Source: a bacterium (GTDB lineage Bacteria > SAR324 > JACQKK01). Taken from it: 64,000 nucleotides of DNA. The translations under genes and the position numbers were made by a program. The notes beneath the pieces were generated by a model. That model saw nothing but the letters and a program-made list of their open reading frames with translations. It ran no database searches and was not told where the DNA came from. This document shows positions 1 to 51,304 of the stretch, in pieces. The stretch covers positions 640,001 to 704,000 of the forward strand of contig OZ251219.1 in NCBI GenBank assembly GCA_965240465.1, written 5' to 3'. The stretch's first letter is position 1. The number at the start of each line of letters is the position of its first letter.

Positions 1-433
1 TTATGACGATTCCTATGCTACAAGACCACGAGCTTCTCAGGTAGCAGTCACCCATTTTGATCAGCCCTTAGCTTTGATCGCTGGTGGTACCGATAAAGGA
101 GCTTCTTTTAGCAGCTGGGCAAAAACCATCTGCCAGCAAACACAGCTAAAAAGGGTGGTGCTGATAGGAAATACCGCAGAACTCCTAGGAAAAATCTTAA
201 AACAAGTCACTCACTCAGAAAATTGCCCCCCAGTGCCAGTGGTACAAGCCCATAGCCTAGGACAAGCCTTTCAATTGGCACTCCAAGCCTTAACATCCAC
301 AGGGGGCGTTTTGTTGCTTAGTCCAGCTTGTGCTAGCCTAGACATGTTCACCGATTACCAACATCGCGGGGAATGCTTCCAAGCCTTGGTACGGGCTCAA
401 CAATTAAAATCCACCGACCCAGAGCAGAGCTAG
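1..433 (+). CDS. murD: UDP-N-acetylmuramoyl-L-alanine--D-glutamate ligase, 3' part (5' end outside window)
   Basis: Frame is open from position 2: YDDSYAT...LIAGGTDKG...LLSPACASLDMFTDYQHRGECF, matching MurD C-terminal motifs. Confidence 0.92.
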   Translation, partial: YDDSYATRPRASQVAVTHFDQPLALIAGGTDKGASFSSWAKTICQQTQLKRVVLIGNTAELLGKILKQVTHSENCPPVPVVQAHSLGQAFQLALQALTSTGGVLLLSPACASLDMFTDYQHRGECFQALVRAQQLKSTDPEQS

Positions 434-512
434 AAATGCTTAAACACCCGATTTCTATCTCCGAGAGATACGAGCATATCTTCCTTATTTAAGGAGAATA
501 GAGCAGGAACAC

Positions 513-1784
513 TCACTCTTTATTAGCTGAATGTTTTTGGGTGGAAAGCTGCGGGTTAGGAGCTTTTGGAGCTGATTGCGATGAACTGGGTTTAGATTTT
601 TTAGTACTGTTTTTTTTAGTTCGGGGAGCATTAGTTCGTGCTTGCCTTTTTTTCCAGAGGGTTTTTTCTTGGAGGATAAATTTGGAGATGATTTCTTGGA
701 GGATTTTTATGAAAGGGATGGTGTATTCAGCGAACAGGAGGGCGATTTTTTTAAGTTTATCAGCCAGTTTGGAGTAGTTGGGTAGATATTTTTTACATCT
801 AGATCTCAGAGTAGTTTTTTTGGGTGGGGGTTCTTCAATTGGTTCTTCAATTGGTTTTTCAATTGGGGGTTTGGGGGCTGATTTTTTCTTCGGCCAAACC
901 AAAGCCAGACAGATTAATTGCCAGAGTAGTAGCAAAGCTGCAATCTCTGCTGCTAGCCAGCTGAGGGCTTCTGTGGCTATTGGACCGTATAGGTAGGAGA
1001 TTAATCGGGATCCTAATAGTTGATGCCATTGAGCAATGGATAAGGATTGCTCGGTTTTAAGAGCATTTGGCTGGCTCTGTGGCAGACTGGCCAGTAGTCC
1101 CATCAAGAAGCGAGTTCGGGGAGGGACTGGGGCGTCGTCGGGGGCGTTGTCGGGGGCGTTGTCGGGTTCGGCTAAGCCAGTGGAATTAGACAGATTATTC
1201 GGTCCGACAAATATATCTTTAGTTAGATAGGGTGGATCGGCAAGGGCTTGGGCCTCGGATAACAGAGGCCAGTTGGGATGATGCATGGTCATCCAGGTTA
1301 GGACTCCTTCTATCAGCCAGTGGCCGGGATTTTTAGTAGCTGGGCTGCTTTGCCTTTGTTTTTGCAATGCTTGGAGATATTCGGCTTCGGGCATATTTGC
1401 CAGAGATTTAAGTAGGGACTGGCTACTCAACGGCTGAGAGGCAGGAATGGAAAGTTTTAGGGGTTGCAACAAGATTTCCCCCACCTGTTCCGCCACTGGA
1501 ACATCGGGAGCAGCTGGGACACGATAAAATTGATGTGCCAATAGCTGCTCAGCATTGAATGCTACCAGATAGCAAAGAGTCCAGATCCAAAATGAAACAA
1601 CAAACTGCCCTAGCAATAACGAGCTGAGCCACCCGCGTCCTATCCAACGCCTCAGGATGGTATGCAGTCCTATTCCGGCTAGGGTACTCATCAAGAACAA
1701 CAAAACCCAGACTGGCCAAGGAAATAGTGCCAGTGCTTGCTCCCAGGGGCTGGAAAGTAAGAATTTTGCTAAGATCAGCTGCAT
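513..1784 (-). CDS. Hypothetical membrane protein with Lys/Pro/Ser-rich basic C-terminal tail
   Basis: 423-aa ORF with N-terminal hydrophobic helices and one later hydrophobic helix; no family recognised. Confidence 0.6.
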   Translation of the reverse strand: MQLILAKFLLSSPWEQALALFPWPVWVLLFLMSTLAGIGLHTILRRWIGRGWLSSLLLGQFVVSFWIWTLCYLVAFNAEQLLAHQFYRVPAAPDVPVAEQVGEILLQPLKLSIPASQPLSSQSLLKSLANMPEAEYLQALQKQRQSSPATKNPGHWLIEGVLTWMTMHHPNWPLLSEAQALADPPYLTKDIFVGPNNLSNSTGLAEPDNAPDNAPDDAPVPPRTRFLMGLLASLPQSQPNALKTEQSLSIAQWHQLLGSRLISYLYGPIATEALSWLAAEIAALLLLWQLICLALVWPKKKSAPKPPIEKPIEEPIEEPPPKKTTLRSRCKKYLPNYSKLADKLKKIALLFAEYTIPFIKILQEIISKFILQEKTLWKKRQARTNAPRTKKNSTKKSKPSSSQSAPKAPNPQLSTQKHSANKE

Positions 1785-1870
1785 TTCGGGACCTGTAGAA
1801 GGGCTACAACTGCTTTTTCACCTCAGCAATGAGCATGGTAGCTAATAGGGAGCAGCTACGGGGTCGTTTT

Positions 1871-2224
1871 CTAGGAAACAGAGGGTCTAGTGGAGCTACT
1901 GGTGGAATTATGGGCAGATTTGCGGCGAGTAGGTAAATGAGCGGGAGATTTTTTATCAAGACCGTTGCGCCACACCCCAGATGGATAAAAGGTAACCACG
2001 TGCCTAGCAGATACGGCATGGAGCTTTCCTGTTTTTGGATTACGCCCAGTTCGTTCTCCTTTATGAAGCACTCTCCACTTGCCAAAACCGCTTATTAAGA
2101 CTGATTCCTTGTCTGCGAAACATTGCTTGATGGATTCTAAAATGTCCTCTACTTGTTGACTAGCTTCTTCATGCGATATTTTCAAACGCAGTTCAATCAA
2201 ACGAATAATATCAGCCTTAACCAT
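1871..2224 (-). CDS. ihfA: Integration host factor subunit alpha (IHF/HU family)
   Basis: MVKADII...VLISGFGKW.V..K.ER.GRNPKTG...VSARHVVTFYPS; short C-terminal extension. Confidence 0.88.
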   Translation of the reverse strand: MVKADIIRLIELRLKISHEEASQQVEDILESIKQCFADKESVLISGFGKWRVLHKGERTGRNPKTGKLHAVSARHVVTFYPSGVWRNGLDKKSPAHLPTRRKSAHNSTSSSTRPSVS

Positions 2225-2573
2225 GGTGTTTTTTAGGATGAGGATGAAAAGAGCAGGGTCTCAAAGACGGGTTAGGGTGATAACATGATATGAGGGCAAA
2301 GCAAGCAGGCACAATCAATTTAACGGGTTTTCAGGTGAAGTTTCCTCATAAATATGGAAATGGAGCATACCATTTATAAAGAACATTAGGATAGGAGGTC
2401 AAGCATTTTTCAGGTTTAAGAAGTGTCTTTTAGGGAGTTATTTTAATGAATTGGGGGGTTGGGAGGGTGGAGGTACTAAAAGAACGGTAAATTTGGGCAT
2501 TACAAACCTTTTTTATGGCATAATAAAAGCATAGTAGGAGGACGCTAATAGCGTTTTCTTAAAGGAGCAAAGA

Positions 2574-4694
2574 ATGATAAGTCGATCGGGATACCAAATT
2601 TTAGTAAAGGGGTTGTCGTGGGTGTTGCTTTGTGTTGGGTTAAGTTTGGGCGGGTTAACTTGGGCGGAGGACGCCAAAAATGATGAGCAACCTACCCAGG
2701 CGGATCCCGTTAGAACTGAGCCTCGGGAGAATAAGGGGTCTTTAGGGAAGGAAGCTGCGAGTGATCCAGCTGATGGATCTGATGATTCTCTCAGGGAGAG
2801 TTTTTCTTTTTGGGCTTCCCCCGATGGTTTTCCTCCTTTGTCGGAAAAGGAGTCTAAGAAGCTTTTTCCTGTTTATCCGATTGTGGCGAAGCAGCAGCAA
2901 TTTTGGATATCTGTGTTTAGCAAGTACAACTCTAAGCAAGGCTTGTTACACGATGGCTTAGTAGGCTTGCCGACTTATGGAGCGGTTAATTTAAGGGGGC
3001 TTAGTAAACGGAGTCAAGAAAGGCTGATAAGAACCAAAAAGAAGCAAGTGTCCAATAATTTGTTGGCACTGGCAAATGCGATAGAAAAAGGTCAACCACT
3101 CAGTAAGAAACAACGCCTTTTGCGAAACTTGTTTCCTAAAAAAACCACTGCTAAGCAATTGAAGATTTCAGCAGGGAGTGTTCGGTTTCAGCGTGGCTTG
3201 TCCGATAAATTTCGTAAGGGCTTGGAACGCTCCAGCAGTGTACTGGTGCATGCTCGCAGTAGTATGAGAAAACATGGTGTACCCGCAGATTTAGCATTCC
3301 TGCCTCATGTGGAATCGTCTTTTCAGGTTCATAGTTATTCCAACAAGAACGCAGCCGGAATGTGGCAATTCACCAGAGGCACTGCTCGCCTTTATATGAC
3401 CGTCAATTATACGGTGGATGAACGTCTGGATCCAATAATCGCCTCTGATGCCGCAGCCCGCTTCCTGAAAGAAAATTATAAAAAATTGAAAACCTGGCCC
3501 CTGGCGATAACCGCTTATAACCACGGCCCCTACAGCTTGAAAAAAATCGTTGCTCGGCAAGGTACCCGCAACCTAGGCAAACTGATAGAAAACTACCATG
3601 GCGGATTGTTTAAAATTGCCAGTAAAAACTTCTATGCAGAATTTCTGGCTGCTCGCACCATCGCCCTGAACCCAGAAGCATACTTCCCAGGAGTAAAACG
3701 ACAGCCAGTACTAGACTTCCAAGAACAACAACTCCCCTTCTATCTGGATGCTAAACTAGCCTCCAAATTGCTGAATACCTCTAAATCAAAACTAAGGGCA
3801 TTAAATCCCGCTTTGCGTCACCCAGTTTGGTCAGGTTCAAAACTTATCCCTACTAACTATAAACTCCGCTTCCCGTCTCATATTGATGCCCAAAAATTCC
3901 TAGCTTCAGTACCTCAAAAACAACGCTTCGCAAAACAACAACGCACCTGGGTAGTACGGGTCAGATCAGGGGATACCCTCTCCAGCATCGGACGTAAATA
4001 CAAAATCAGCTGGCACAGCATCGCCAAGGCTAATAACATCGTTTCTTATAATCGTTTGCGCCCAGGGCAAAAACTGCTGATCCCACATCGGGGCCAAACT
4101 GCACCTCCACAAATAAAGAAAATTCAGCAAAATATTCAGCTAGCCAATGCCAAAAAACAAGGCAAAAAACAAGGCGAAAAACCAGCCACCAAAACCAAAA
4201 CAGCTACTACCTCAAACTTTATCTATCCCTCTAAACACGCCAATGTCCTCCAAGTACTGGCATACTCCCCCTCCTCGGCAGAAGTTAAGGTGAAAGCCGT
4301 CTATGGAGAAGTCATCGGACACTACGCCGATTGGTCTGGAACCGGACTCACTCGCATCCTGAGAGCCAATCGCCTTAGCCGCCGTGCCAAACTGAAAGCT
4401 AATCGCCAATATCGCATCCCCCTCAATGTCTCCAAGCAGGAATTTGAAAGACGACGAATAACCTATCACGCACAACTAGAAAGCGACTTCTTCCAACGCT
4501 TCAATGTCATTGATAAAAAAACCCTCATCGTTAAACCAGGACAAACCGCCTGGAACATCGCCAAACCTCACAATATACCCATGTGGCTCTTCTTCCGAGA
4601 AAACCCCAGACTGCAAAACAAAATCCTCCAACCAGGCATGAAATTGGTACTCCCCATCGTTACACCCATTAAAAGCCAAGCACGGGTCTTGTAA
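2574..4694 (+). CDS. Lytic transglycosylase (SLT) with LysM domains, MltD-like
   Basis: LPHVESSF, AAGMWQF, DERLDP, AITAYNHG (SLT motifs); VRSGDTLSSIG and VKPGQTAWNIA LysM repeats; signal peptide. Confidence 0.9.
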   Translation: MISRSGYQILVKGLSWVLLCVGLSLGGLTWAEDAKNDEQPTQADPVRTEPRENKGSLGKEAASDPADGSDDSLRESFSFWASPDGFPPLSEKESKKLFPVYPIVAKQQQFWISVFSKYNSKQGLLHDGLVGLPTYGAVNLRGLSKRSQERLIRTKKKQVSNNLLALANAIEKGQPLSKKQRLLRNLFPKKTTAKQLKISAGSVRFQRGLSDKFRKGLERSSSVLVHARSSMRKHGVPADLAFLPHVESSFQVHSYSNKNAAGMWQFTRGTARLYMTVNYTVDERLDPIIASDAAARFLKENYKKLKTWPLAITAYNHGPYSLKKIVARQGTRNLGKLIENYHGGLFKIASKNFYAEFLAARTIALNPEAYFPGVKRQPVLDFQEQQLPFYLDAKLASKLLNTSKSKLRALNPALRHPVWSGSKLIPTNYKLRFPSHIDAQKFLASVPQKQRFAKQQRTWVVRVRSGDTLSSIGRKYKISWHSIAKANNIVSYNRLRPGQKLLIPHRGQTAPPQIKKIQQNIQLANAKKQGKKQGEKPATKTKTATTSNFIYPSKHANVLQVLAYSPSSAEVKVKAVYGEVIGHYADWSGTGLTRILRANRLSRRAKLKANRQYRIPLNVSKQEFERRRITYHAQLESDFFQRFNVIDKKTLIVKPGQTAWNIAKPHNIPMWLFFRENPRLQNKILQPGMKLVLPIVTPIKSQARVL

Positions 4695-4841
4695 CTAATA
4701 ATAAATTTCGTTTCCAAAGGGATCCACCCAACCTGATGAAAGCAACGGTCTGAAAAGATTTCTCTGAAAGCAATGCAAGAAACCCTGCAAAATCGCACCA
4801 TATTTTGTAGAGATAATCTAGAGGTGCTGTATCAATAGCGA

Positions 4842-5555
4842 TCAGCTAGGGGGTTTGCAGGCGATGTGTAGGGCAGTGGTGCCGAACAGGTATTCTTTCA
4901 GCTGGATGGAAGAGAATCCTACCTGTTGCAACAGCTGGCATAGTTGTGCTTGGGAAAGATAATCGCGGGTGGAATGAGGAAGGTAGTCAAACATTTCTTC
5001 TGCAGGCATAAGCAATTTGCCGATCCTGGGAACGATATGAAACATATAGGCATGAGCTAAGGGTTTCATCCAGCGGTAGCGTACTTGTCCGATATCCAAA
5101 CAGGCGAAACGGCCTTTGGGCTTAAGAATGCGGAACAGCTCAGTGAGACAGCCCTGGGGATCGGAAACATTACGCAATCCATAGCCGATGGTCACCACAT
5201 CAAAGGTTTGGTTGGCGAATGGAAGGATGAGGGCATCGGCAGCGAGGGTGTAGGTATGTTGGTATCGCCTTAAACGATGTTGAGTGATCCGCAACATGGG
5301 AAGGGAGAAATCAGCTGCGATAACCACTCCTTGTCCCTGGATCTGTTTGCAGGCACGCAAGCTAAGGTCGCCAGTGCCACAACAGACATCCAAGATACGC
5401 ATGGATGGACGTATTTTTGCCAACCGAATAAGAGTATTTTTCCAACGGCGATGCTGGGCTTGGGTGATTAAATCATTGAACAGGTCATAGTGGCTGGCAA
5501 TGTTTCCAAATCGCTTTTGCACGAAGCGAGCTTTGTTTTTGGGCATCTTAAACAT
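4842..5555 (-). CDS. ubiE: UbiE/MenG-family C-methyltransferase (ubiquinone/menaquinone biosynthesis)
   Basis: F..IA..YD..ND, ILDVCCGTGDL, FDVVTIGYGLRNV, LFRILKPKG; start placed at ATG 5555 (5546 also possible). Confidence 0.9.
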   Translation of the reverse strand: MFKMPKNKARFVQKRFGNIASHYDLFNDLITQAQHRRWKNTLIRLAKIRPSMRILDVCCGTGDLSLRACKQIQGQGVVIAADFSLPMLRITQHRLRRYQHTYTLAADALILPFANQTFDVVTIGYGLRNVSDPQGCLTELFRILKPKGRFACLDIGQVRYRWMKPLAHAYMFHIVPRIGKLLMPAEEMFDYLPHSTRDYLSQAQLCQLLQQVGFSSIQLKEYLFGTTALHIACKPPS

Positions 5556-15713: not shown

Positions 15714-15780
15714 GCGGAGTTAGGCGGAGTTAGGCAGGGTTAGGCAGGGTTAGGCGGAGTTAGGCAGGGTTAGGCGGAGT
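15701..15780. repeat. 8 x 10 bp two-variant tandem array (TAGGCAGGGT / TAGGCGGAGT, order ABBAABAB) spanning the stop codon
   Basis: Read directly. Confidence 0.95.
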
Positions 15781-15852
15781 TTTACTGGTGTGACAGGATG
15801 AGGGGTTAAGTTTTAGTTGTCGGGGGTGGACGATGGGTAGGAATTTGGGAGT

Positions 15853-35702: not shown

Positions 35703-35703
35703 A

Positions 35704-40767: not shown

Positions 40768-40854
40768 GTTTTTTTGCAAGCTAGGAAAAATGTATAGCAA
40801 CCAACCTTAAATCAGGATGGATATGGTATCCCAATCAGCTGAGTTCTCCAAGAG

Positions 40855-42219: not shown

Positions 42220-43616
42220 GGCAGGTTTTGGTGCTTGGGCGGGCGAGCATGGGTTAATGAGTTCTCGGGGTTGAGATTTTCTTTTAGGTCAAATAGTTCT
42301 GCTAGTACTCGGGCTTGGGTGGTGATGATAGGCAGGGGCGGGTTATTGCACTCGGGTATCGGTGGAGCAGAGAGTAGGGCTTGTTCGGCGGCGATACTTT
42401 TAAGTCTTACAGAAGGGATATGGAGCAAGCGATTGATAAGGCGATGCATGGTTTGGTTTAGGTATGGTTCTAGTTGTTGTGCGAGGAGGGGGTTTTTATA
42501 TTTGAGAGCGGTGAGGGTTTGTTGACATTCGGTATTTCCCCAGCGGGTGATTTTTTGTCGTAGGGAGCGTATCAGTGGTACTGCTAGTAGTTCCTGTTGT
42601 TTTTGGAGCCACCGATTGAGTTCTGTTTCTACTAGGGATAGGGCTTGTTGGATTTGTTGTCCTCGGTCTTGGCGATTTTCCTCGGCTAGATGTTGCAGGT
42701 CGTTGAGGTCGTAGCGGTAGGCATTGGCAAGGGAGTTGATGGTGGGATCAATATCGGGTGGCATGGCGATGTCAATGAAGAAGATTGGTGAGCCTTTGCG
42801 TTTTTTCAGGGCTTGGGCGGCCATTGTTCGGGTAATTAGAGGTTGGGTAGCGCCGCTGGAGCCTAGGACGATATCGGCGGTGGAAAGGAGGGTATCTAGT
42901 TCAGCAAAGCAAGCGGGCTGAGCTTGTACTTGTTCGGCAAGGGCTTGGGCGTGAGCAATGGTACGGCTAGCGACCTTTAAGTTACATAAGCCGTCTTTTT
43001 TTAGTTCTTGAGCTGCCAGCTGGGACATTTCACCTGCCCCCAGTAAGAGCATACATTTATCTGACAATCCAGAAAAAATCTTGCGTGCCAATTGCACCGC
43101 GATATGACTGATGGATAAAGGATTGATAGCTACCTCGGTTTCGGTATGCACTCGTTTGGCAGTCCGAAAAGCATGTTGCAACAAGGGTTGTAGCAAGGCT
43201 CCTAAGGACTCGGCTTCCAAAGCTTGCCGATAAGCCTGCTTCACCTGACCCAAAATCTGAGGCTCTCCCACCAGCATGGAATCCAAACTAGTAACCACCA
43301 ATAGCAAATGACGAACCGCGGAACTACCACTCAGCTGCAAACACTTTTCTTCCCAATCCTTATCAGAATCAAAATCCCGCGGCAGTCTAAAATGCTCCCC
43401 CAGCCAAGCAATTAGCCGAACTCTCGTCTGCTCAGCATCCCGACCACTCACTAGATAACACTCCACCCGATTACAAGTAGTTAACCAAAATACTTCCTCT
43501 CCAATATCCAGCATCTCCCTAAGTAAACTCACTCGCTCAGATTCAGGAACATAAAGAGCCTCTCTTAACTCAGGACTACTAACGCGAAAATTGAAACTCA
43601 GCAAATGTAGATACAT
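42216..43616 (-). CDS. hemA: Glutamyl-tRNA reductase
   Basis: TTCNRVECY, SLDSMLVGEPQILGQVK.AY, LGAGEM, IDIAMPPDID. Confidence 0.95.
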   Translation of the reverse strand: MYLHLLSFNFRVSSPELREALYVPESERVSLLREMLDIGEEVFWLTTCNRVECYLVSGRDAEQTRVRLIAWLGEHFRLPRDFDSDKDWEEKCLQLSGSSAVRHLLLVVTSLDSMLVGEPQILGQVKQAYRQALEAESLGALLQPLLQHAFRTAKRVHTETEVAINPLSISHIAVQLARKIFSGLSDKCMLLLGAGEMSQLAAQELKKDGLCNLKVASRTIAHAQALAEQVQAQPACFAELDTLLSTADIVLGSSGATQPLITRTMAAQALKKRKGSPIFFIDIAMPPDIDPTINSLANAYRYDLNDLQHLAEENRQDRGQQIQQALSLVETELNRWLQKQQELLAVPLIRSLRQKITRWGNTECQQTLTALKYKNPLLAQQLEPYLNQTMHRLINRLLHIPSVRLKSIAAEQALLSAPPIPECNNPPLPIITTQARVLAELFDLKENLNPENSLTHARPPKHQNLP

Positions 43617-43933: not shown

Positions 43934-44884
43934 ATGCCCGCTATCACCAAAAAATCTCCCATGGAATCTCCTAGGAAATCTCCCATGGAATCTCCTAGGA
44001 AATCTCCCATGGAATCTCCTAGGAAATCTCCCATGGAATCTCCTAGGAAATCTCCCATGGAATCTCCTAGGAAATCTCCCATGGAATCTCCTAGGAAATC
44101 TCCCATGGAATCTCCTAGGAAATCTCCCATGGAATCTCCTAAGAAATCTATAACCTCAGGCTGGGTAATTACTCCCAATCGGCTTACCTGGATGCGAGTA
44201 GCTTTAGTGCCTCCCTTGTTGGTGGTTTTGTATCAAGACCAACCTTTTTATAACTGGGTTGCCTTGGCGTTGTTCTTGTTGGCGGTATCCACCGATATTG
44301 CCGATGGCATTGTAGCTCGTAGCCGACAGCAAGTATCTCAGCAGGGAAAATTGATGGACCCTCTAGCTGATAAGATCTTGGCAATGAGCTTGATGGTTAG
44401 TTTGGTGGGTTTGCAACGGGTAGGAGCTTTGCCAGTTATTCTGATATTAGGGCGGGATTTTGGAATTTCCATGTTGCGTCAGCGGTCTGCTTTAAGGGGC
44501 TGGGCGATGGCAGCCAGCAAGTTTGGAAAGCTTAAGACCGTCATTCAAGGAATTGCCATTGGAGTATTATTGGTAAGCCACAATCCTTGGGAAATATCCA
44601 CCGAGTTATTAGGAGTGGTTTTACTCTGGTTAAGTGTGGGGGTATCTTTGACTAGCGGATGGGGATATTGGACTTCTTTTCAGCGTTTTAAGAAATCTCT
44701 TGATGCCAAGACAGCTGAGGCTGCCAAGACAGCTGAGGCTACCAAGACAGCTAAAGCTACCAAGACAGCTGAAGCTGCCAAGACAGCTGAGGCTACCAAG
44801 ACAGCTAAAGCTACCAAGACAGCTGAAGCTGCCAAGACATCCGAAGCTGCCAAACGGGTAGGTAGGATTTCGCCCTTGGCTTAG
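43934..44884 (+). CDS. pgsA: CDP-diacylglycerol--glycerol-3-phosphate 3-phosphatidyltransferase with repeat tails at both ends
   Basis: PNRLTWMR, TDIADGIVARSRQQVS..GKLMDPLADKIL, GKLKT..Q. Confidence 0.92.
   Translation: MPAITKKSPMESPRKSPMESPRKSPMESPRKSPMESPRKSPMESPRKSPMESPRKSPMESPRKSPMESPKKSITSGWVITPNRLTWMRVALVPPLLVVLYQDQPFYNWVALALFLLAVSTDIADGIVARSRQQVSQQGKLMDPLADKILAMSLMVSLVGLQRVGALPVILILGRDFGISMLRQRSALRGWAMAASKFGKLKTVIQGIAIGVLLVSHNPWEISTELLGVVLLWLSVGVSLTSGWGYWTSFQRFKKSLDAKTAEAAKTAEATKTAKATKTAEAAKTAEATKTAKATKTAEAAKTSEAAKRVGRISPLA
43952..44143 (+). repeat. 8 x 24 bp in-frame repeat AAATCTCCCATGGAATCTCCTAGG encoding (KSPMESPR)n
   Basis: Read directly; last unit has one mismatch. Confidence 0.97.
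44705..44854 (+). repeat. About 8 x 18 bp in-frame repeat encoding ([A/T]KTA[E/K]A)n at the PgsA C-terminus
   Basis: Read directly. Confidence 0.93.
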
Positions 44885-44909: not shown

Positions 44910-47900
44910 TCAGGGTACGGATTCCAGTTGTAATCTTTGTTGATAGGCTTGGGCAGATTTTTGGTGTTTGCCGAGGTGGTAGTACAAGCTACCGATGATG
45001 TCTAGTACTTGGGCGATTTTAGTTTGTGGTTCTTTTAGTTGTCGCAAGAGGTTTTCCAGTAGGAGGTAGGCATCCAGTTGTTGTTCGGGTGTGGTTTGCG
45101 ATAGTTGGGGGCAGATTTGTTGGAGGAGGGCTAAGTTTTTTTGATTGGGGGGGGGATTTTTGGAGAATGTTTTCCAAGCTTCCAGCGGTTGATTTTTTTG
45201 CAGATATATTTGTACGAGCAGGTTTGAGAGCCAATTAGGTATGGCAGTTTTGGCTGGCCAGTGTAGGAGTGCCAGTTTTCCCAAGTTGAAGGCTAGTTCT
45301 GGCTGTGGCGGGGATGTTTGCAAGTAGCAGCGTGCCAGCAGGGCTTGCAGGCGAGTAAGGGACGGGAGTGAGGAGGGGGTATTTAGGTGTTCTAGCCAAG
45401 TCAGTTGGGAGGTAAGGAGTTTTATCAGGGTACGGGAGGGATTTTTTTCCAGTTGGATTAGGTGTTCGCAGGCTAGGGTCAGGGAGGGGGGGTCTTGGGT
45501 TTGTCGGGCAATGGCGAGCCACTGCTGGGCTGCTTCTTGTTGGGAGGGGGTGGGGTGGGTGGGGGTATTTTGGTTGGGTTCAGGGGGATTGTCAGGGGGA
45601 TTGTCAGGGGGGTTGTCAGGGGGTTTGTGGAGGTGTAGTTGGCTTTGATTAAATACCCGATGAACTTCCAGCAGCTGTTTTTTTAGGTTTGGGGGGTCGG
45701 CTGGGGAGGTATGCTGAAGAGCTTGGGGGATATGCAGATCTTGGGGGGGGGGGTTATGCTGAAGGGCTTGTTGAGCTAGTTTTCGGGCGAGAGCCCAGTT
45801 TTGGTATTTGGCAGCTTGGGAGGCGGTTTTGGCTAGGAGTTCAAATTCCAGATTTTTTAGGTTGAGGTCTTTAAGTTGCGGGTCTGGCGAGGTAGTTTTT
45901 TTCAGTTCGGTGGTTATGGCAGCAGGGCAGGTTTGGATGGCTCGTAGCAAGCAGCCGAGCAGTGCAGGTTCACAGCTATTGCTTAGGCTGTAAGAAAGCG
46001 GGCAGATTTTTTGATATAGCTGATACAACTGCAATAGGGAGGAGTATTGTTTAAATTCATCCAGCAACAGGGCTAGTTCTGCTAGATTGGCTTGCTGACT
46101 TTCCCATAAGAGTTGAAGGTCTTTTTTAGGCAACTCAGAGGAATTTAAGACGGTCATTCCTTTTAGGAGCAAGGAACAGGCTTTTTCCCAGCTGGCAGGT
46201 CCCATTTTTTGGAGCAGGTTTTTTGTCAGGGGCTGGCGTAACCCACTGGGTAGCTGCCAGAAGCCAGCGGATAGTCGTTGTAACCAGCCCTCAGATTCTA
46301 GCTTTTCCAAAGCCAGCTGCCATTTTGACGCACAGCAATGCCCTAGTAATTCGCTAGGCAAGGCAGCTGGACACAGGCTAAACAGAGTTAACAATTCTAT
46401 CTCCACGGCACTCCACTTGGATACATGGGTACTCACCAGCCAATCCAACAACGCTTTTGAGGCTTCTGCCAAATGAAAAGATGAGTGAGAAGCGGAAGCC
46501 GAGGTTACCGCAACAGAGGTTACCGCAACAGAGGTTACCGCAACGGAAGTTACCGTGGCAGAGGTTACCGCAGTCGCCTTATATTTATCCCAGCAAGAAC
46601 TCACTATCTCTGGCGAAGGCCAAGGCGAAAGTCGCGATAATAAACGACCCAATAATAAATGCTGTCCGCACAAAGCGAGCAACTGCTGAGCATCAGGACG
46701 AGCTCTAACCTCTCGCATCCAGCTGGGACCGAATACTTGCTCCAATTCTTCTTCCTCCAAGGGAGCTAACTCCAGAACCTCAGCTGCCTTGAGGGAATCC
46801 GAGCTTTGATTGCCTACCAGCAAGGTACAACTTTTACCCTCCAGCTCTGCCAAGCGAACTGCCAAACCAAGCCAGCTTGGCTTATGCTCCACATGCTCCA
46901 GCACCAATAAGTGGGAGGTATTCCTCCAAGCTGAGGCAATCAGGCTCTGGTACTTATCAGCTGGTACTTCGGGTAGAGCCAACATCTTTCCTAGCAATTG
47001 CCACGGAGCAGTACTATCAGCTGGGTTGTTGTCATTTGGGTTGTTGTCATTGCGGCTCGGGATAACTGCGGGAGACCAAAATTCTAGTTCTTCCAAGCTA
47101 GGGGAAAGGAAATCTCCATCAAGGTGGATCACCTTGTCGTAACGGGACTTAACATGCTTTAGGGCTGCATGTACTAGGGTACTTTTTCCTCCGCTGGGGG
47201 AGGATCTTAATTGCAAAAAAGCTGGAGCTTCTGCCCTGAGGTGACTCAGTAATGTTAGCAAGCTCTGATGCCGATCGGCGCAGCGATTCGTCGGTGAGGG
47301 ATTCGTTGGCGAGGGATTCATCGGTGAGGGATTTGTTGGCGAGGGATTCATCGGTGAGGGATTTGTTGGCGAGGAAGGTGCTAAATTAACTAAGGTATCC
47401 AGGGGGGGTGATTGCCAGAATTTTTGTTTTCGCGGGATAGATTGCTCGGACAGAGTTGGCTGAGACAGGGTTGGCTGAGACAGGGTTGGCTGAGACAGAG
47501 TTGGCTGAGACCAAGATTGCTGAAAGCGTAAATAAGCCCATTGTCCCTGATGTCCTCCCCAGAGAGCAACATGCTGGATGGCAGCCAGATGGCTAGCTTC
47601 GGGGGAATTTCCTTGGGCAAGCTGCAAAGATAATCGCTGGAAATAGCGTTGTTGCACTGGGGCAGATAGCTGTCCTCTGAGTCGGATCAGGGCGGGAATA
47701 CCGCTATTGAGTAGGGTACAATCCACGGTGTGACTATGAGAGGGATTGAGCCAGCTGGATGAATCCTGCAATAAGAGCAATTTTAAGCCCGCCTTAGCCG
47801 CAGAACTCCACCGACCGTACATGGAACGGTTGTCTAGGATTTCCAATTTTGCCGAGGGACTTTCCAAGTACCAGCCGTATTCATCGGCATAGCAGCTGAG

Positions 47901-48829: not shown

Positions 48830-49996
48830 ATGACCGTTAATCAAACTACACCCTTAAAATTTGAATTATGTTCTACCGATGGTCAAGCTCGGCGGGGGAA
48901 ATTGATTTCTGCTTGGGGGGAGGTAGAGACTCCAGTGTTTATGCCAGTTGCCAGTCAGGGAGCCATCAAGACTTTGCCGATCTGGCAGGGGCAGAAATTA
49001 GGAGTGGGGGCTTTGTTGAGTAATAGTTATCATTTGCATTTGCAGCCTGGGGAGGATTTAGTACATGCGGCTGGAGGGATCCATCGTTGGATGGGCTGGC
49101 AGGGGCTGGTGATAACTGATAGTGGTGGTTATCAGGTATTTTCATTACCCAAGCGAAAAATTACTGAGGAGGGGGTATCCTTTATCACGCAGCGGGGCGA
49201 GCTGAGGCTGACCCCAGAAAAAGCGATGGAGATCCAGCAAAAGCTGGGGGCTGATATTGTCATGGTGCTGGATGAATGCTTAGCTTATCCTGCTTCTTAT
49301 AAAATGGCGCGACAAGCCATGGAACGCACTGTACGCTGGGCTGAGCGTTGTCAGACGGCTCATCATCGGGCGGATCATCGTCAGGCGGATCATCATCAGG
49401 GACAGGCTTTGTTTGCGATTGTGCAGGGGGGGACTCATGCGGATCTTCGCCAGGGCTGTGTAGAGCAACTAGCAGCTCTGAATCTAGCGGGAATGGCAAT
49501 CGGAGGCTTGAGTGTAGGAGAGGGCATAGAGGTCATGACCACGGTACTGGGCTTTACGGTAGAACATATGCCTGCTGATCGTCCTCGTTATTTAATGGGC
49601 GTGGGGTTGCCTGAGGACATCTTGACCGCGGTGGAAATGGGGATAGACATGTGTGATTGCGTGATCCCTACTAAATATGCTCGTTCTGGGGTATTATTCA
49701 CTCGGGTGGGACGCCTGCGAATTACGGGTGGTAGCTATCGCAAGGACGGCTTCCCGATTGACTCAGACTGCGATTGTTTAACTTGTCGGCATCATTCGCG
49801 GGCATATTTGCATCACTTATTTCGCAATCGGGACCCTTTATCGCAAACGCTGGCTACCATTCATAATCTGCATTTTTATCTCGGGCTGATGTCGCAGGCA
49901 CGACAAGCGATTACCGAAAAACGCTTCTCGGCTTTCAAACGAGAAACGCTGGCTCTTTATCAGAGAGAGGGAAAGAAAAATCAACGGGTCAGCTAA
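48830..49996 (+). CDS. tgt: Queuine tRNA-ribosyltransferase (tRNA-guanine transglycosylase)
   Basis: ETPVFMPV, TDSGGYQVFSL, LFAIVQGG, IGGLSVGE, RPRYLMGVG, CDC.TC..H Zn site, HNL.FY. Confidence 0.96.
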   Translation: MTVNQTTPLKFELCSTDGQARRGKLISAWGEVETPVFMPVASQGAIKTLPIWQGQKLGVGALLSNSYHLHLQPGEDLVHAAGGIHRWMGWQGLVITDSGGYQVFSLPKRKITEEGVSFITQRGELRLTPEKAMEIQQKLGADIVMVLDECLAYPASYKMARQAMERTVRWAERCQTAHHRADHRQADHHQGQALFAIVQGGTHADLRQGCVEQLAALNLAGMAIGGLSVGEGIEVMTTVLGFTVEHMPADRPRYLMGVGLPEDILTAVEMGIDMCDCVIPTKYARSGVLFTRVGRLRITGGSYRKDGFPIDSDCDCLTCRHHSRAYLHHLFRNRDPLSQTLATIHNLHFYLGLMSQARQAITEKRFSAFKRETLALYQREGKKNQRVS

Positions 49997-50069
49997 ACCC
50001 GATCGCTAAACCCGATCGCCAAACCCGACCGCTAAACTCGATCGCCAAACCCGACCGCTAAACTCGATC
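49992..50069. repeat. 6 x 13 bp array (GCYAAACYCGAYC) starting at the tgt stop codon
   Basis: Read directly. Confidence 0.93.
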
Positions 50070-50123
50070 TTGGCAACTGGAATTAGCTCTCCGCCCCTCG
50101 CCCCCCCCTCCTCAGTTGCTTTG

Positions 50124-50519
50124 CTATTCTTTGGGAGAACTTACAGGCGACTTGACGAGATTTTCGGTCACCTTAGCTTTAAGGCTGGAACAAATATTCT
50201 CAAACACTTGGGGCTGTTGAACGGCAATGTTTGCCAGCACCTTGCGATTTAGTCCCATATCGGACTGCCGAGCCGCACAGATAAACTGGCTATAACTCAA
50301 CCCCAACTGACGACAAGCAGCATTGATACGCACAATCCATAAACGCCGAAAATCGCGTTTCTTTATCCGTCGGTCACGATAGGCGTAGCTATGGGCTCTA
50401 TCAACGGCATTGCGTACGGTACGCCACAAACGCCTCCGTCCGCCACAATAACCTTTGGCGGCTTTGAAATAATTACTTTTTCGCTTGCGGGCAGCCACGG
50501 CCCTCTTGATCTTCGCCAT
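50124..50519 (-). CDS. rplT: 50S ribosomal protein L20
   Basis: AKGYCG.R, YAYRDRRIKKRDFRRLWIVRINAACR..GLSYSQF, LNRKVLA. Confidence 0.96.
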   Translation of the reverse strand: MAKIKRAVAARKRKSNYFKAAKGYCGGRRRLWRTVRNAVDRAHSYAYRDRRIKKRDFRRLWIVRINAACRQLGLSYSQFICAARQSDMGLNRKVLANIAVQQPQVFENICSSLKAKVTENLVKSPVSSPKE

Positions 50520-50784: not shown

Positions 50785-50857
50785 ATCTACCCGTATGCTG
50801 TCTGTGTGCCGTCTATCTGCCAGTGACGATGAAAATCTAACTGACCCCAACTCCCCG

Positions 50858-50886
50858 ACCATACTCAAATAAAATCGCTTATGCAA
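50858..50886 (-). promoter_or_regulatory. Putative sigma70 promoter for rpmI-rplT
   Basis: Minus strand TTGCAT-N17-TATGGT. Confidence 0.5.
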
Positions 50887-51101
50887 GCCTTAAAAATACT
50901 CTAAAAACATTGCAACCCAAAAAACTTGATCATTAACTCAAAAAACTCAATATGCTCATAAGACGCTTCTTATAAAATAACAAACCTCAGCACCGAACTT
51001 CCCATAATCATCCAAGTTAATGGCCAGTTACTCTGTAAGCAACCCCGCTTAATTACAAAATACGCCTTCGTTCAGGGTGCGGGGACGCCCTAGGCTACCC
51101 C

Positions 51102-51231
51102 CCCCCCTAGGAAGATTGCCTAAAGAAATGTGCCTCTAGCTACCTCCGAGGACTATTACAGCGGCGGGTGCTTTTTCAAGCCGAGGCATGCCTTAGGATT
51201 AGCCTTTCAGGCAGTTAATCTACAGGGAAAG
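51102..51231 (-). ncRNA. Candidate rod-shaped structured RNA (6S-like), strand tentative
   Basis: Nested complementary arms found by eye: TTCCCTG/TAGGGGG, AGATT/AATCT, TGCCTGAAAG/CTTTAGGCA, TGCCTC/GAGGCA. Confidence 0.4.
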
Positions 51232-51275
51232 TGTGCTAAGATGATTACACCTTAAACAGACACTCCGAAAAAAAC

Positions 51276-51304
51276 TTGACACAATGTGAATTGTAGTATA
51301 TAAG
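51276..51304 (+). promoter_or_regulatory. Near-consensus sigma70 promoter of giant lipoprotein 1
   Basis: A7 tract, TTGACA-N17-TATAAG. Confidence 0.75.

What the first reader, a model, noticed from the sequence alone, without database searches (positions are those of the whole stretch)
1..51300. Kilobase-scale saw-tooth strand skew that appears independent of gene orientation
Seen: on the + strand, composition repeatedly jumps from C/A-rich to G/T-rich and then drifts back over roughly 2-7 kb. Apparent jumps lie near 500, 2300, 4800, 14800, 18830, 22100, 28080, 32700, 36750, 44000 and 47900. Hand counts per 60 nt: the + strand LysM gene has G22/C6 at 2581-2640 and G7/C21 at 4561-4620; the - strand hemA gene has G22/C7 at 42481-42540 and G5/C20 at 43441-43500. 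The left-to-right polarity is therefore the same for genes on either strand. Jumps occur at convergent, divergent and co-directional junctions and once inside a gene (~36750), while two convergent junctions (15713/15853 and 49996/50124) show none. Many proteins end in P/T/K/Q/N-rich stretches as a result. Established: a C-to-G jump marks a bidirectional replication origin, normally once per bacterial chromosome. Inference: many fixed sites of bidirectional DNA synthesis, repair or single-strand exposure, or an unusual transcript-position bias. Several repeat arrays sit at jumps. The lines counted were hand-picked, so this needs computing.
Basis: partly seen in the sequence, partly recalled or inferred. 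Interest (0 to 1): 0.85.

Follow-up and report, generated by a model that had tools for sequence, protein, structure and literature searches.

The report
Within-gene G-to-C strand-skew gradient
In this small bacterial genome and its sister species most genes or operons start G/T-rich and end C/A-rich even at silent codon positions, giving a saw-tooth in strand composition that mimics many replication origins but follows expression units, and I found no bacterial precedent for it.

Summary
The saw-tooth is real. All four hand counts are exact, and 9 of the 11 listed jumps are recovered. It runs through the whole 1.6-Mb genome and is shared by the one congener sampled. It was not seen in samples of 13 other genomes of the family or order, nor in 45 loci from diverse bacteria.

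It is not protein-driven. It is strongest at 4-fold sites, where sense-strand GC skew falls from -0.06 to -0.33 along genes. It is present in all eight 4-fold codon families. It persists at identical residues of orthologues whose relatives are flat.

The "same polarity on both strands" follows from symmetry: a 5'-to-3' G-to-C gradient is unchanged by reverse complementation. Upward jumps sit at gene boundaries and are nearly absent at tight co-directional junctions. The switch occurs 25-50 nt after stop codons, in non-coding DNA.

One ordinary origin signature exists: dnaA lies at the global skew minimum.

Best reading: a transcription-unit-anchored strand asymmetry, probably mutational. The mechanism is unresolved. 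Many replication origins are unlikely.

The parts
1..51300 (.). Region of saw-tooth strand skew as flagged. Plus-strand GC skew in 500-nt windows ranges from -0.385 to +0.559.
470..570 (.). Upward C-to-G jump (D 0.50), 8 nt from the stop of minus-strand ORF 513-1784.
2140..2240 (.). Upward jump (D 0.36) at the start of a small minus-strand ORF, upstream of the LysM/SLT gene.
4770..4870 (.). Upward jump (D 0.53) at convergent junction 4694/4842.
18750..18850 (.). Upward jump (D 0.77) at convergent junction 18628/18837, beside the C/A-rich tandem array 18674-18781.
22290..22390 (.). Upward jump (D 0.45) in the divergent region upstream of the response-regulator gene.
23420..23520 (.).
28040..28140 (.). 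Upward jump (D 0.52) at the 4-nt overlap of two Proton_antipo_M (nuoM/N-like) genes. It is sharpened by the TEKP-type repeat tail 28087-28226.
32590..32690 (.). Upward jump (D 0.49) at the nuoG-like/nuoJ-like junction inside the nuo cluster.
36690..36790 (.). Upward jump (D 0.83) inside the 1001-aa SctQ/FliN-like ORF. This one is protein-driven: codon positions 1+2 flip from about -0.2 to -0.7 to +0.5 at the Gly-rich C-terminal part, while position 3 stays negative.
40810..40910 (.). Upward jump (D 0.53) at a co-directional junction between dnaB and the upstream small ORF.
44130..44230 (.). Upward jump (D 0.53) just inside the plus-strand CDP-OH transferase gene, after the divergent hemA promoter region. 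It overlaps the 24-nt x 8 repeat 43952-44149.
46960..47060 (.). Internal upward jump (D 0.46) 1.8 kb from any boundary, inside the 1290-aa ORF, which carries two teeth.
2574..4694 (+). LysM/SLT gene. Third-position sense skew in 240-nt bins: +0.6 +0.4 +0.2 -0.2 -0.4 -0.5 -0.5 -0.6 -0.6.
41422..43616 (-). hemA-hemD unit (4-nt overlap). hemA third-position skew: +0.9 +0.5 -0.2 -0.8 -0.6 -0.5. hemD continues at -0.4 -0.8 -0.8 without a reset.
15853..17520 (-). DUF2254 gene. Third-position skew: +0.4 +0.3 -0.6 -0.2 -0.5 -0.7 -0.5.
26656..31826 (-). Three Proton_antipo_M genes (nuoL/M/N-like), each with its own G-to-C tooth at third positions: +0.6 to -0.3, +0.2 to -0.7, +0.2 to -0.7.
32698..36234 (-). 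nuoE/F/G-like genes behave as one unit. nuoF-like runs +0.2 to -0.7. nuoG-like stays at -0.2 to -0.8 with no G-rich start.
15713..15853 (.). Convergent junction without a jump (D -0.09). Holds the 10-nt tandem array 15696-15781.
49996..50124 (.). Convergent junction without a jump (D -0.16). Holds the 13-nt tandem array 49992-50069.
51385..64000 (+). Exceptions: two giant GLUG-motif ORFs. Third-position skew is -0.24 to -0.83 throughout, with no G-rich start. Their roughly 2-kb skew periodicity matches repeated protein modules of about 650 aa.

Best explanation
The saw-tooth is a gradient anchored on genes or operons. On the sense strand, each expression unit begins G/T-rich and becomes C/A-rich with distance from its start, at about -0.2 skew units per kb at 4-fold sites. 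It saturates near -0.4 to -0.5.

The composition resets 25-50 nt downstream of the stop codon, in the spacer before the next unit. Such a gradient is its own reverse complement, so on the + strand every unit reads G-to-C from left to right whatever its orientation. This mimics an origin-like jump at each boundary. It is superimposed on one ordinary replication skew, with the origin beside dnaA at 605 kb.

Shown here:
- It acts on silent sites.
- It is independent of protein sequence.
- It extends into non-coding spacers.
- It shifts amino-acid usage, and C-terminal P/T/K/Q/N-rich stretches are consistent with that shift.
- It is a derived trait of this reduced-genome genus.

Inferred: the cause is a transcription-linked, strand-asymmetric substitution bias whose balance changes with distance from the promoter. 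Near the 5' end the non-template strand would be the exposed one, for example behind RNA polymerase in negatively supercoiled or R-loop-prone DNA. An opposite unit-wide bias would dominate further downstream. The enzymology is unknown.
For: Silent sites:
- Metagene of 941 ORFs of at least 200 aa: sense GC skew falls monotonically at 4-fold sites from -0.055 to -0.334, third positions +0.058 to -0.160, first positions 0.275 to 0.092, second positions -0.04 to -0.157. The slope is the same in 467 leading and 474 lagging genes.
- At 4-fold sites C rises 0.232 to 0.305 and G falls 0.208 to 0.152, with A and T flat.
- The gradient is seen in all 8 four-fold families. In 2-fold R codons G/(A+G) falls, for example GAR 0.41 to 0.27.

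Per gene:
- First-half minus second-half 4-fold skew is positive in 71% of 675 genes, mean 0.179, p = 1.5e-41.
- First-minus-last third-position skew exceeds 0.6 in 76 of 412 genes and is below -0.6 in 6. Shuffles gave 0 either way.

Orthologue control: at identical conserved 4-fold residues, G000 runs -0.13 to -0.31 while the same columns in G009 are flat (-0.055 to +0.02). Against G008, G000 runs +0.11 to -0.28 while G008 stays -0.17 to -0.215.

Lineage:
- The congener G001 shows the same gradient (+0.047 to -0.254; 71% of 180 genes; p = 3e-11).
- G004, G008, G009, G013, G015, 8 further family genera and 45 diverse loci show none.
- Excess SD of 300-nt skew is 0.20 in G000 and G001, against 0.00-0.10 elsewhere.

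Anchoring:
- 84-93% of strong upward jumps lie within 200 nt of an ORF boundary (random 41%). Downward jumps lie inside genes.
- Junction D is 0.219 divergent, 0.134 convergent, 0.106 co-directional with gap over 30 nt, 0.026 with gap of 30 nt or less, and -0.057 mid-gene.
- Logit slope on distance from the start is -0.31 to -0.44 per kb (z -18 to -30). The slope on distance to the stop is +0.05 to +0.17.
- In 100 co-directional spacers of 150-450 nt, skew flips 25-50 nt after the stop. The spacer then sits at +0.10 to +0.14 in sense orientation.

Signature: the synonymous-codon shift between first and last thirds correlates with the leading-versus-lagging shift (r = 0.878, slope 1.03, 59 codons).

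Conservation: local third-position skew, measured at disjoint sites, correlates between G000 and G001 orthologues (r = 0.59, n = 877 windows). Their 4-fold sites are close to saturation, 36% identical against 25.5% expected.
Against: - Replichore, gene strand and position together explain only 14% of the variance of 300-nt all-site skew, although 85% of that variance is not sampling noise.
- 29% of genes show no gradient or a reversed one. The giant ORFs, the SctQ-like ORF and the nuoG-like ORF have no G-rich start.
- Evidence that the unit is the operon rather than the ORF is mixed. Gap class 1-10 nt resets by 0.225 +/- 0.067, whereas overlapping genes reset by 0.10 and gaps of 11-30 nt by 0.06. 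Regression favours operon distance for gaps of 10 nt or less but own-gene distance for gaps up to 30 or 50 nt.
- Operons were inferred from gaps only. No transcript data exist.
- A pure cytosine/adenine deamination signature is not met. At 4-fold sites A and T stay flat, and the purine fraction moves from 0.30 to 0.535 between C-rich and G-rich patches. This fits a simple weight on G versus C, which selection could also produce.
- A mutational model needs a second, opposite bias to explain 3' ends more C-rich (-0.33 to -0.5) than the 4-fold skew of any relative sampled.
- None of 10 candidate families is missing from both G000 and G001: UDG, Mfd TRCF, RNase HI, RNase HII, Rho, NusG, TopA, GyrA-type, MutS, HhH-GPD.
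Confidence: 0.55

Rival explanations
1. Selection on the G-versus-C balance of the nascent transcript. G-rich, C-poor 5' parts and leaders would keep Rho from loading early, or tune R-loop propensity. C-rich, G-poor 3' parts would act as Rho loading regions that end each unit.
For: - At 4-fold sites the change is a nearly pure G-for-C exchange with the A/T ratio constant at 0.69. The log-odds shifts of G/A (1.09) and C/T (1.19) are about half that of C/G (2.28), as a single weight on G minus C predicts (numbers computed by hand).
- The gradient resets at unit ends and is nearly absent at tight junctions.
- The C-rich regime ends 25-50 nt after the stop codon, and spacers are G/T-rich.
- Intrinsic-terminator-like hairpins are rare in 3' flanks: 7% in G000 and 0% in G001 by a crude rule.
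- Rho and NusG are present.
- The skew landscape is conserved between the two species.
Against: - Relatives equally poor in terminator-like hairpins, and also carrying Rho, have no gradient.
- A loading site needs on the order of 100 nt (recalled), not a kb-scale gradient.
- Mean all-site skew in the last 100 nt is only about -0.06.
- The giant ORFs are C-rich at third positions but G-rich overall.
- The effect also changes amino-acid usage. It would require effective weak selection at tens of thousands of silent sites in a reduced genome.
- The codon shift has the same direction and size as the replication-strand shift.
- Selection for unstructured mRNA is not supported. Mean 100-nt MFE is -20.81 for real genes and -20.70 for synonymous-position shuffles, p = 0.095, in 160 genes drawn at random from the ORFs of 1200-2400 nt.
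Confidence: 0.22
2. Many fixed sites of bidirectional DNA synthesis, repair synthesis or single-strand exposure lie at the jumps, so each unit behaves as a pair of converging mini-replichores. A variant has Okazaki fragments phased on gene boundaries.
For: - The shape is that of multi-origin skew domains: abrupt upward jumps and slower declines. Upward jumps outnumber downward ones, 67 to 19 at D > 0.6.
- Jumps occur at divergent, convergent and co-directional junctions.
- The first-versus-last-third codon shift equals the leading-versus-lagging shift in direction and size (r = 0.878, slope 1.03).
- In 81 isolated genes, both distance from the start and distance to the stop matter (-0.39 and +0.29).
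Against: - One conventional origin signature exists, with dnaA at the global skew minimum.
- Jumps are almost absent at tight co-directional junctions (0.026 against 0.106-0.219). An orientation-blind and expression-blind process does not predict this.
- In most gene sets distance from the start dominates.
- The Okazaki-phase variant predicts leading genes anchored at their 3' end and lagging genes at their 5' end, with no sign inversion on the lagging-strand template. Both classes behave alike, and + strand third-position skew swings from about +0.8 to -0.9 within the right replichore.
- Amplitude grows with gene length instead of being constant.
Confidence: 0.05
3. Translational codon selection that strengthens along the reading frame, either as a 5' ramp of rare codons or as a growing cost of nonsense errors. 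C- and A-ending codons would be the optimal ones.
For: - The gradient runs with the reading frame. 3' values become more extreme in longer genes.
- Reset is only partial where genes overlap and translation could be coupled.
Against: - The composition switch lies in non-coding DNA 25-50 nt after the stop. The whole spacer upstream of the next start codon is already G/T-rich.
- Upstream halves of divergent spacers are skewed in sense orientation, -0.057 and +0.053.
- First and second codon positions and amino-acid usage shift too.
- The elongation-factor genes tuf and fusA, identified from their N-terminal sequence only, are not C-biased at 4-fold sites (+0.08 and -0.17) and show no gradient.
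- Known position-dependent codon bias decays over tens of codons (passages of PMC4069614), not kilobases.
Confidence: 0.05
4. Protein composition alone. G-rich codons of N-terminal catalytic domains and C/A-rich codons of low-complexity P/T/K/Q/N tails and tandem repeats would create the skew.
For: - Several sharp jumps in the window are sharpened or caused by repeats or low-complexity segments: 28087-28226, 36577-36665, 18674-18781, 43952-44149.
- The jump at 36740 is carried by codon positions 1+2.
- The giant ORFs' periodic skew follows protein modules.
Against: - The effect is largest at 4-fold sites and is present in every 4-fold family.
- It persists at identical residues of orthologues while the relatives are flat.
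- It is linear through bins 1-8, not confined to the tails.
- G001 has the gradient with few tandem repeats: 11 arrays per 100 kb, against 26 in G000 and 73 in the window.
Confidence: 0.02

Closest known systems
[quoted passage not shown]
   Same: - Sense-strand GC skew changes progressively, and changes sign, between gene start and end.
- It affects 4-fold sites, extends into flanking non-coding DNA and biases amino-acid usage between protein ends.
- AT skew is nearly flat, which argues against simple C-to-T deamination.
- The cause is unresolved between mutation and adaptation.
   Different: - The direction is reversed: fungi are C-biased at the 5' end and G-biased at the 3' end.
- The fungal case involves eukaryotic Pol II genes and is widespread across fungi.
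- Here it is a bacterium, confined to one genus among those sampled, with resets between operon-like units and single genes swinging from +0.9 to -0.8 at third positions.
Transcription-associated strand asymmetry in bacteria: constant excess of G and T on the non-template strand (recalled; reviewed in PMC2031905 and PMC10030826, seen only as search listings and abstracts)
   Same: - Tied to the sense strand of transcribed DNA.
- Keto (G,T) versus amino (C,A) axis at 2-fold sites.
- Strongest at silent sites.
   Different: - The known effect is treated as uniform along a gene and small.
- Here it changes sign within the unit and depends on distance from the start.
- It equals or exceeds the replication skew.
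Promoter-proximal GC skew and 5'-end mutational asymmetry of mammalian genes (PMC3787257, PMC2927911, PMC2817419; search listings and abstracts only)
   Same: G-rich non-template strand just downstream of the start, decaying over 1-2 kb. It is linked there to R-loops and transcription-associated mutation.
   Different: - The mammalian case involves CpG-island biology and Pol II.
- It has no C-rich regime growing toward the 3' end.
- It is not a genome-wide feature of nearly all genes.
Replication-origin skew switch and multi-origin skew domains with upward jumps (the mammalian case is recalled)
   Same: Abrupt C-to-G jumps followed by declines. The codon-level signature equals that of leading versus lagging strands.
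   Different: - The jumps follow ORF and unit boundaries and are nearly absent at tight operon junctions.
- The genome has one separate, ordinary origin signature at dnaA.
Position-dependent codon usage or 5' codon ramp (Hockenberry et al. 2014, PMC4069614, passages read; Hooper and Berg 2000, recalled and seen only in reference lists)
   Same: Synonymous codon choice depends on position in the gene.
   Different: - The known effects are short-range or weak.
- As I recall Hooper and Berg, third-position G rises along E. coli genes, the opposite direction.
- Here the scale is kilobases, the amplitude is large and non-coding spacers take part.

Membership tests
Bacterial replication origin (oriC) skew switch | Global minimum of cumulative GC skew, one per chromosome, with the opposite switch at the terminus. 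| tested here: not met
   The global minimum is near 605 kb and the maximum near 1562 kb of the genome, both outside the window. The window's jumps are local steps on a rising cumulative curve.
Bacterial replication origin (oriC) skew switch | Next to dnaA, DnaA-box clusters or an AT-rich unwinding element. | tested here: inconclusive
   dnaA lies at 605.6 kb beside a 1-kb stretch of 33.6% GC, not in the window. The E. coli DnaA-box consensus (recalled motif) with up to 1 mismatch gives 14 matches in the window against 15.4 expected. It is also not enriched around dnaA, 4 against 3.5, so the motif test cannot discriminate.
Bacterial replication origin (oriC) skew switch | Polarity set by fork direction, independent of gene or operon structure. 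| tested here: not met
   84-93% of strong upward jumps lie within 200 nt of an ORF boundary. Mean D is 0.026 at tight co-directional junctions against 0.106-0.219 at other junctions.
Multi-origin skew domains (upward jumps at origins, linear decline between) | Saw-tooth shape with abrupt rises and gradual falls. | tested here: met
   Upward jumps outnumber downward ones: 289/220, 135/68 and 67/19 at D > 0.4, 0.5 and 0.6. Declines lie inside genes.
Multi-origin skew domains (upward jumps at origins, linear decline between) | Amplitude set by fork polarity, constant between domains, and symmetric dependence on both boundaries. | tested here: not met
   Amplitude grows with gene length. Distance from the start dominates distance to the stop in most gene sets.
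Multi-origin skew domains (upward jumps at origins, linear decline between) | Initiation of DNA synthesis mapped at the jumps. | not testable with these tools
   No nascent-strand data. Only assembled contigs of DNA runs were on offer.
Transcription-associated strand asymmetry | Sense-strand-specific skew at silent sites and in non-coding DNA flanking the genes (whether that DNA is transcribed is not known). | tested here: met
   4-fold gradient. Spacers are skewed in sense orientation, with the switch 25-50 nt after stops.
Transcription-associated strand asymmetry | Follows transcription units rather than single reading frames. | tested here: inconclusive
   For: junction D is 0.026 at gaps of 30 nt or less. 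hemA-hemD and nuoE/F/G behave as single units. Operon distance wins for gaps of 10 nt or less. Against: own-gene distance wins for gaps up to 30 or 50 nt. The 1-10 nt gap class resets by 0.225. Units were inferred from gaps only.
Transcription-associated strand asymmetry | Strength scales with expression. | not testable with these tools
   No RNA holder listed.
Transcription-associated strand asymmetry | Deamination signature: C-to-T and A-to-G on the exposed strand, with GC and AT skew inversely coupled. | tested here: inconclusive
   2-fold sites fit: G/(A+G) 0.22 to 0.58 and C/(C+T) 0.46 to 0.19 between patch classes. All-site r(GC skew, AT skew) = -0.36. But at 4-fold sites A and T are flat and the purine fraction changes from 0.30 to 0.535.
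Fungal opposite 5'/3' GC skews (McLean and Tirosh 2011) | [quoted passage not shown] | tested here: met
Fungal opposite 5'/3' GC skews (McLean and Tirosh 2011) | Direction: C-biased at the 5' end, G-biased at the 3' end. | tested here: not met
   Here the 5' end is G-biased and the 3' end C-biased.
5' codon ramp / position-dependent codon bias | Confined to coding sequence and decaying within tens of codons. | tested here: not met
   The decline continues for 1.5-2 kb. Spacers share the 5' regime.
Single-strand-exposure-time gradients of vertebrate mitochondrial DNA (recalled) | Gradient at silent sites made of transitions only, with purine/pyrimidine totals unchanged. | tested here: not met
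   A near-monotonic gradient is present, but the purine fraction at 4-fold sites shifts from 0.30 to 0.535.

The most novel reading that the evidence does not exclude
In this genus each transcription unit carries a replication-like strand asymmetry that flips inside the unit, because DNA synthesis or long-lived single-strand exposure is primed at unit boundaries. Candidates are R-loop-primed or nick-primed synthesis running inward from both ends. A bacterial chromosome would then be shaped by hundreds of fixed, expression-linked DNA-synthesis or exposure sites in addition to oriC, strongly enough to remodel proteins from N- to C-terminus.
Probability: 0.07. Interest if true: 0.95.

Novelty: new variant of a known kind. 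Interest (0 to 1): 0.78.

Why it matters
- If the cause is mutational, this lineage is a natural experiment. A process anchored on expression units rivals replication in shaping strand composition. It drives silent sites within one 1.4-kb gene from 95% G to 90% C among G/C-ending codons. It also shifts amino-acid usage between protein N- and C-terminal parts.
- That would make distance-dependent transcription-associated mutagenesis (R-loops, supercoiling, repair) directly visible in a bacterial genome.
- If the cause is selection, it would show genome-wide tuning of transcript G/C balance, for example for Rho-dependent termination. That has not been described at this scale.
- In practice, such genomes break methods that read local GC skew as replication history: origin finders and inference of gene inversions from skew. 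They also break the assumption of stationary codon usage within genes that gene finders and substitution models make.

Tried and rejected
- Protein-driven skew as the main cause: rejected.
- Tandem repeats as the cause: rejected, because G001 has the gradient with few repeats.
- Read-through antisense transcription from convergent neighbours: 3' ends are equally C-rich with convergent neighbours (-0.44 lagging, -0.21 leading) and with co-directional ones (-0.41, -0.28).
- Okazaki-phase or fork-entry exposure model: rejected on anchoring and sign inversion.
- Selection for weaker local mRNA structure: no difference from synonymous-position shuffles.
- Context-specific deaminase: by my hand calculation, the log-odds change is similar (about 0.5-0.9) in all 8 four-fold families, whatever the preceding base.
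- Candidate gene losses: 10 Pfam families searched in G000, G001, G009, G008 and G004, none missing from both members of the genus. Only a MutY-like ORF is not found in G000, and it is present in G001.
- Promoter consensus scan of 26000-45000: 17 hits against 21 expected, uninformative. Terminator-like hits: 33 against 22.4 expected, mostly on the wrong strand.
- Motif search in 3' flanks: only C-runs were enriched (CCCCCC in 32 of 418 flanks). No common motif emerged.
- Intrinsic-terminator loss as a genus-specific change: terminator-like hairpins are rare in all relatives sampled.
- DnaA-box scan: uninformative.
- Expression data: no RNA holder listed. Read laying was not used, because only assembled contigs were on offer.
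- Internal roughly 2-kb periodicity of the giant ORFs as evidence for a fixed physical period: explained by protein modules of about 650 aa.
- Naming the organism: the TGT protein has at most 51% identity to any named genome locus. A scan with the DnaB protein returned one locus, the congener's, whose record title gives no taxon. I did not pursue it further.
- Literature: five full-text searches returned no report of a kb-scale sign-changing intragenic GC-skew gradient in bacteria. Supplementary files were not consulted.

Full report
**Setting.** The window is bases 640001-704000 of a single-contig genome of 1,599,138 bp with 45.4% G+C. No annotation was available. I called 1260 non-overlapping ORFs of at least 80 aa by a greedy longest-ORF rule; they cover 89% of the genome. 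Starts may therefore be over-extended, and operons are inferred only from gap sizes. Pfam names for the window's genes come: a LysM/SLT protein, nuo genes, hemA, hemD, dnaB, ribosomal proteins, an SctQ/FliN-like ORF and GLUG giants.

- D is the GC skew of the right 500 nt minus that of the left 500 nt. The window has 14 upward jumps above 0.355, the largest value seen in 50 shuffles. Nine of the 14 lie within 60 nt of an ORF boundary. The 11 downward jumps above the same threshold all lie inside ORFs.
Those at 14800 (D 0.29) and 47900 (D 0.22) are sub-threshold. The two convergent junctions said to lack a jump do lack one.
- GC and AT skew are anticorrelated (r = -0.36), so the contrast between C/A-rich and G/T-rich is a fair description.

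**It is genome-wide and lies within genes.**
- Over 941 ORFs of at least 200 aa, sense-strand GC skew falls monotonically from 5' to 3' at every codon position. The fall is greatest at 4-fold degenerate sites (-0.055 to -0.334). The slope is the same in leading and lagging genes, which differ by a constant offset of about 0.2.
- At 4-fold sites C rises from 0.232 to 0.305 and G falls from 0.208 to 0.152. A and T stay flat.
- All eight 4-fold families show it. In 2-fold purine-ending codons G gives way to A. Asp, Cys and Val decline along proteins, while Gln, Tyr, Asn, Thr, Pro and Lys rise.
- First-half minus second-half 4-fold skew is positive in 71% of 675 genes (p = 1.5e-41).
- Third-position skew in 300-nt bins has an SD of 0.40 against a binomial 0.15. 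First-minus-last exceeds 0.6 in 76 of 412 genes and is below -0.6 in 6; shuffles gave none either way.
- Single genes are dramatic. hemA runs +0.9, +0.5, -0.2, -0.8, -0.6, -0.5 at third positions.

**Why the polarity looks independent of gene orientation.** A sequence that is G-rich in its 5' part and C-rich in its 3' part has a reverse complement with the same property. On the + strand, + and - genes therefore both read G-to-C from left to right, and every boundary between units shows a C-to-G step. This is arithmetic, not biology, and it removes the main argument for an orientation-blind process.

**It is not protein-driven.**
- The effect is ordered 4-fold > third > first > second position.
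- At residues that are identical and 4-fold degenerate in orthologous pairs, G000 keeps its gradient while the same columns are flat in the relatives. With 65 pairs, G000 runs -0.13 to -0.31 and G009 runs -0.055 to +0.02. With 41 pairs, G000 runs +0.11 to -0.28 and G008 runs -0.17 to -0.215.
- Individual sharp jumps can still be protein- or repeat-driven. The jump at 36740 inside the SctQ-like ORF is carried by codon positions 1+2 at a Gly-rich repeat.
- The roughly 2-kb periodicity in the two giant ORFs follows protein modules of about 650 aa.

**It is a trait of this genus.**
- The one congener held (G001, 1.72 Mb; 400 kb sampled) has the same gradient: +0.047 to -0.254, 71% of 180 genes, p = 3e-11.
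- Samples of 29-320 kb from 11 other genera of the family, two genera of the order and 45 loci of diverse bacteria show none.
- The excess SD of 300-nt GC skew is 0.20 in G000 and G001, against 0.00-0.10 elsewhere. 10.9% of their 300-nt windows exceed |0.35|, against 0-1.3% elsewhere.
- Family members are larger (2.3-5.2 Mb) and richer in G+C (51-70% in the samples). The trait therefore arose in a reduced, AT-shifted lineage.

**What the unit is.**
- Genome-wide, 84-93% of strong upward jumps lie within 200 nt of an ORF boundary (random 41%). Downward jumps are distributed like random points.
- Mean D is 0.219 at divergent junctions, 0.134 at convergent ones and 0.106 at co-directional junctions with gaps over 30 nt. 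It is 0.026 at gaps of 30 nt or less and -0.057 at mid-gene controls.
- In the window, hemA-hemD and the nuoE/F/G-like genes behave as single units.
- In 100 co-directional spacers of 150-450 nt the switch from C/A-rich to G/T-rich occurs 25-50 nt after the stop codon. The rest of the spacer, well upstream of the next start codon, sits at +0.10 to +0.14 in sense orientation. Halves of divergent spacers are each G-rich in the sense of their own gene.
- The pattern therefore belongs to DNA or transcripts, not to translated codons, and mostly follows operon-like units.
- The evidence is not clean. The 1-10 nt gap class resets by 0.225 +/- 0.067. Regression favours operon distance for gaps of 10 nt or less but own-gene distance for gaps up to 30 or 50 nt.

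**Anchoring.**
- In logistic fits of G versus C at 4-fold sites, distance from the start has a slope of -0.31 to -0.44 per kb (z -18 to -30). Distance to the stop has +0.05 to +0.17. In 81 isolated genes both matter (-0.39, +0.29). The leading-strand term is +0.5.
- The decline continues for about 2 kb and saturates near -0.4.

**Signature.**
- The shift in synonymous codon use between first and last thirds of genes correlates with the shift between leading and lagging genes (r = 0.878, slope 1.03, 59 codons).
- I classified patches by the odd codons and measured them on the even codons. From the most C-rich to the most G-rich class, 4-fold C goes 0.40 to 0.14 and G 0.09 to 0.31, with the A/T ratio constant. 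In 2-fold codons G/(A+G) goes 0.22 to 0.58 and C/(C+T) 0.46 to 0.19.
- This is the keto-versus-amino axis of classical strand asymmetry. It is not a transitions-only deamination signature, because the purine fraction at 4-fold sites moves from 0.30 to 0.535. A single weight on G minus C describes it well, which leaves selection open.

**Replication.**
- The genome has one conventional origin signature. The cumulative skew minimum is near 605 kb and the maximum near 1562 kb. dnaA lies at 605.6 kb, next to a 1-kb stretch of 33.6% G+C.
- A model of phased Okazaki fragments would also give the same + strand polarity in both replichores. It predicts different anchoring for leading and lagging genes and no sign inversion. 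Both predictions fail.

**Mechanism.** I favour a transcription-linked, distance-dependent strand-asymmetric substitution bias (confidence about 0.55).
- Reasons for it:
  - The effect is largest at the freest sites.
  - It reaches non-coding spacers.
  - It drags amino-acid usage along.
  - It has the direction and size of the replication asymmetry.
  - It extends over kilobases.
  - It occurs in a reduced genome, where weak selection on tens of thousands of silent sites should be ineffective.
- Weaknesses:
  - A second, opposite bias is needed to make 3' ends more C-rich than in any relative sampled.
  - No candidate repair, topology or termination gene is missing from both genomes; 10 families were tested.
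  - No transcript data exist.
- The main rival is selection on the transcript's G/C balance, for example Rho loading at unit ends and protection of 5' parts. It fits the G-for-C exchange and the reset at unit ends. It is weakened because relatives with Rho and equally few terminator-like hairpins lack the gradient. Selection for less mRNA structure is not seen.

**What remains unexplained.**
- Replichore, strand and position together explain only 14% of the variance of 300-nt skew, although 85% of that variance is not sampling noise.
- The residual landscape is not noise. Local third-position skew, measured at disjoint sites, correlates between G000 and G001 orthologues (r = 0.59 over 877 windows; r = 0.31 within genes after removing an average gradient). 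Their 4-fold sites are close to saturation, 36% identical against 25.5% expected.
- Some locus-specific, conserved factor therefore sets the local skew state. Expression level is an obvious untested candidate.

**Comparison with what is known.**
- The closest described phenomenon is the opposite 5'/3' GC skew of fungal genes (PMC3315797; abstract, the first Results subsection and the Discussion read). It shares the silent-site effect, the extension into flanks, the amino-acid bias and the flat AT skew. It runs in the reverse direction and concerns Pol II genes.
- Position-dependent codon bias in bacteria is short-range (PMC4069614, passages read).
- Five full-text searches found no bacterial report of a kb-scale, sign-changing intragenic skew gradient. 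The library lacks most subscription journals, and supplements were closed, so this is absence in those searches only.

Noticed in passing
window 18837-19490 (-), 19585-19998 (-), 20046-20630 (-): Ribosomal proteins carry low-complexity extensions. L9 is 217 aa and S18 is 137 aa, each with a P/T/S/K-rich C-terminal tail. S6 has a P/T/A-rich N-terminal extension of about 75 aa before its Pfam domain.
   Followed up: no
window 36304-39309 (-): A 1001-aa ORF whose only Pfam match is a C-terminal FliN/SctQ-type domain. The rest is P/T/K/E-rich with a 90-nt x 5 near-perfect repeat (38182-38627) and a GGGGI x 6 repeat (36577-36665).
   Followed up: partly
window 51385-59268 (+) and 59350-64000 (+; the ORF runs on to 64485 in the genome): Two adjacent giant GLUG-motif ORFs (2627 and 1711 aa) built of modules of about 650 aa that are 47-73% identical within and between the two genes. 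Third positions are strongly C-rich throughout.
   Followed up: partly
window intergenic arrays 13155-13244, 15696-15781, 18674-18781, 22076-22157, 41322-41419, 49992-50069: Short-period (10-20 nt) tandem arrays fill many intergenic spacers. The window has 73 merged arrays per 100 kb, the first 400 kb of the genome 26, and the congener only 11.
   Followed up: partly
genome G000:C1:255696-271494 (outside the window): Downstream of the intact RNase HI gene lie four fragments matching the 3' end of the RNase H domain, spaced about 3.0-3.5 kb apart. This suggests a tandem segmental duplication.
   Followed up: no
whole genome: No gene-strand bias: 632 of 1260 ORFs lie on the leading strand as I assigned it. 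The ribosomal-protein cluster appears split into two blocks at about 75.7-82.5 kb and 92.5-99.9 kb. Gene names there are inferred from N-terminal sequences only.
   Followed up: no
G000 versus G001 (whole genomes): A MutY-like HhH-GPD ORF of about 400 aa is found in G001 and in the relatives. Only the short Nth-like one is found in G000.
   Followed up: no
3' flanks of ORFs in G000, G001, G004, G008, G009, G013, G015: Intrinsic-terminator-like hairpins followed by T-runs are rare throughout this family and order: 0-7% of 3' flanks by a crude rule.
   Followed up: partly
window 12464-12551 (-): The only Rfam match in the window is one long (88-nt) tRNA gene.
   Followed up: no
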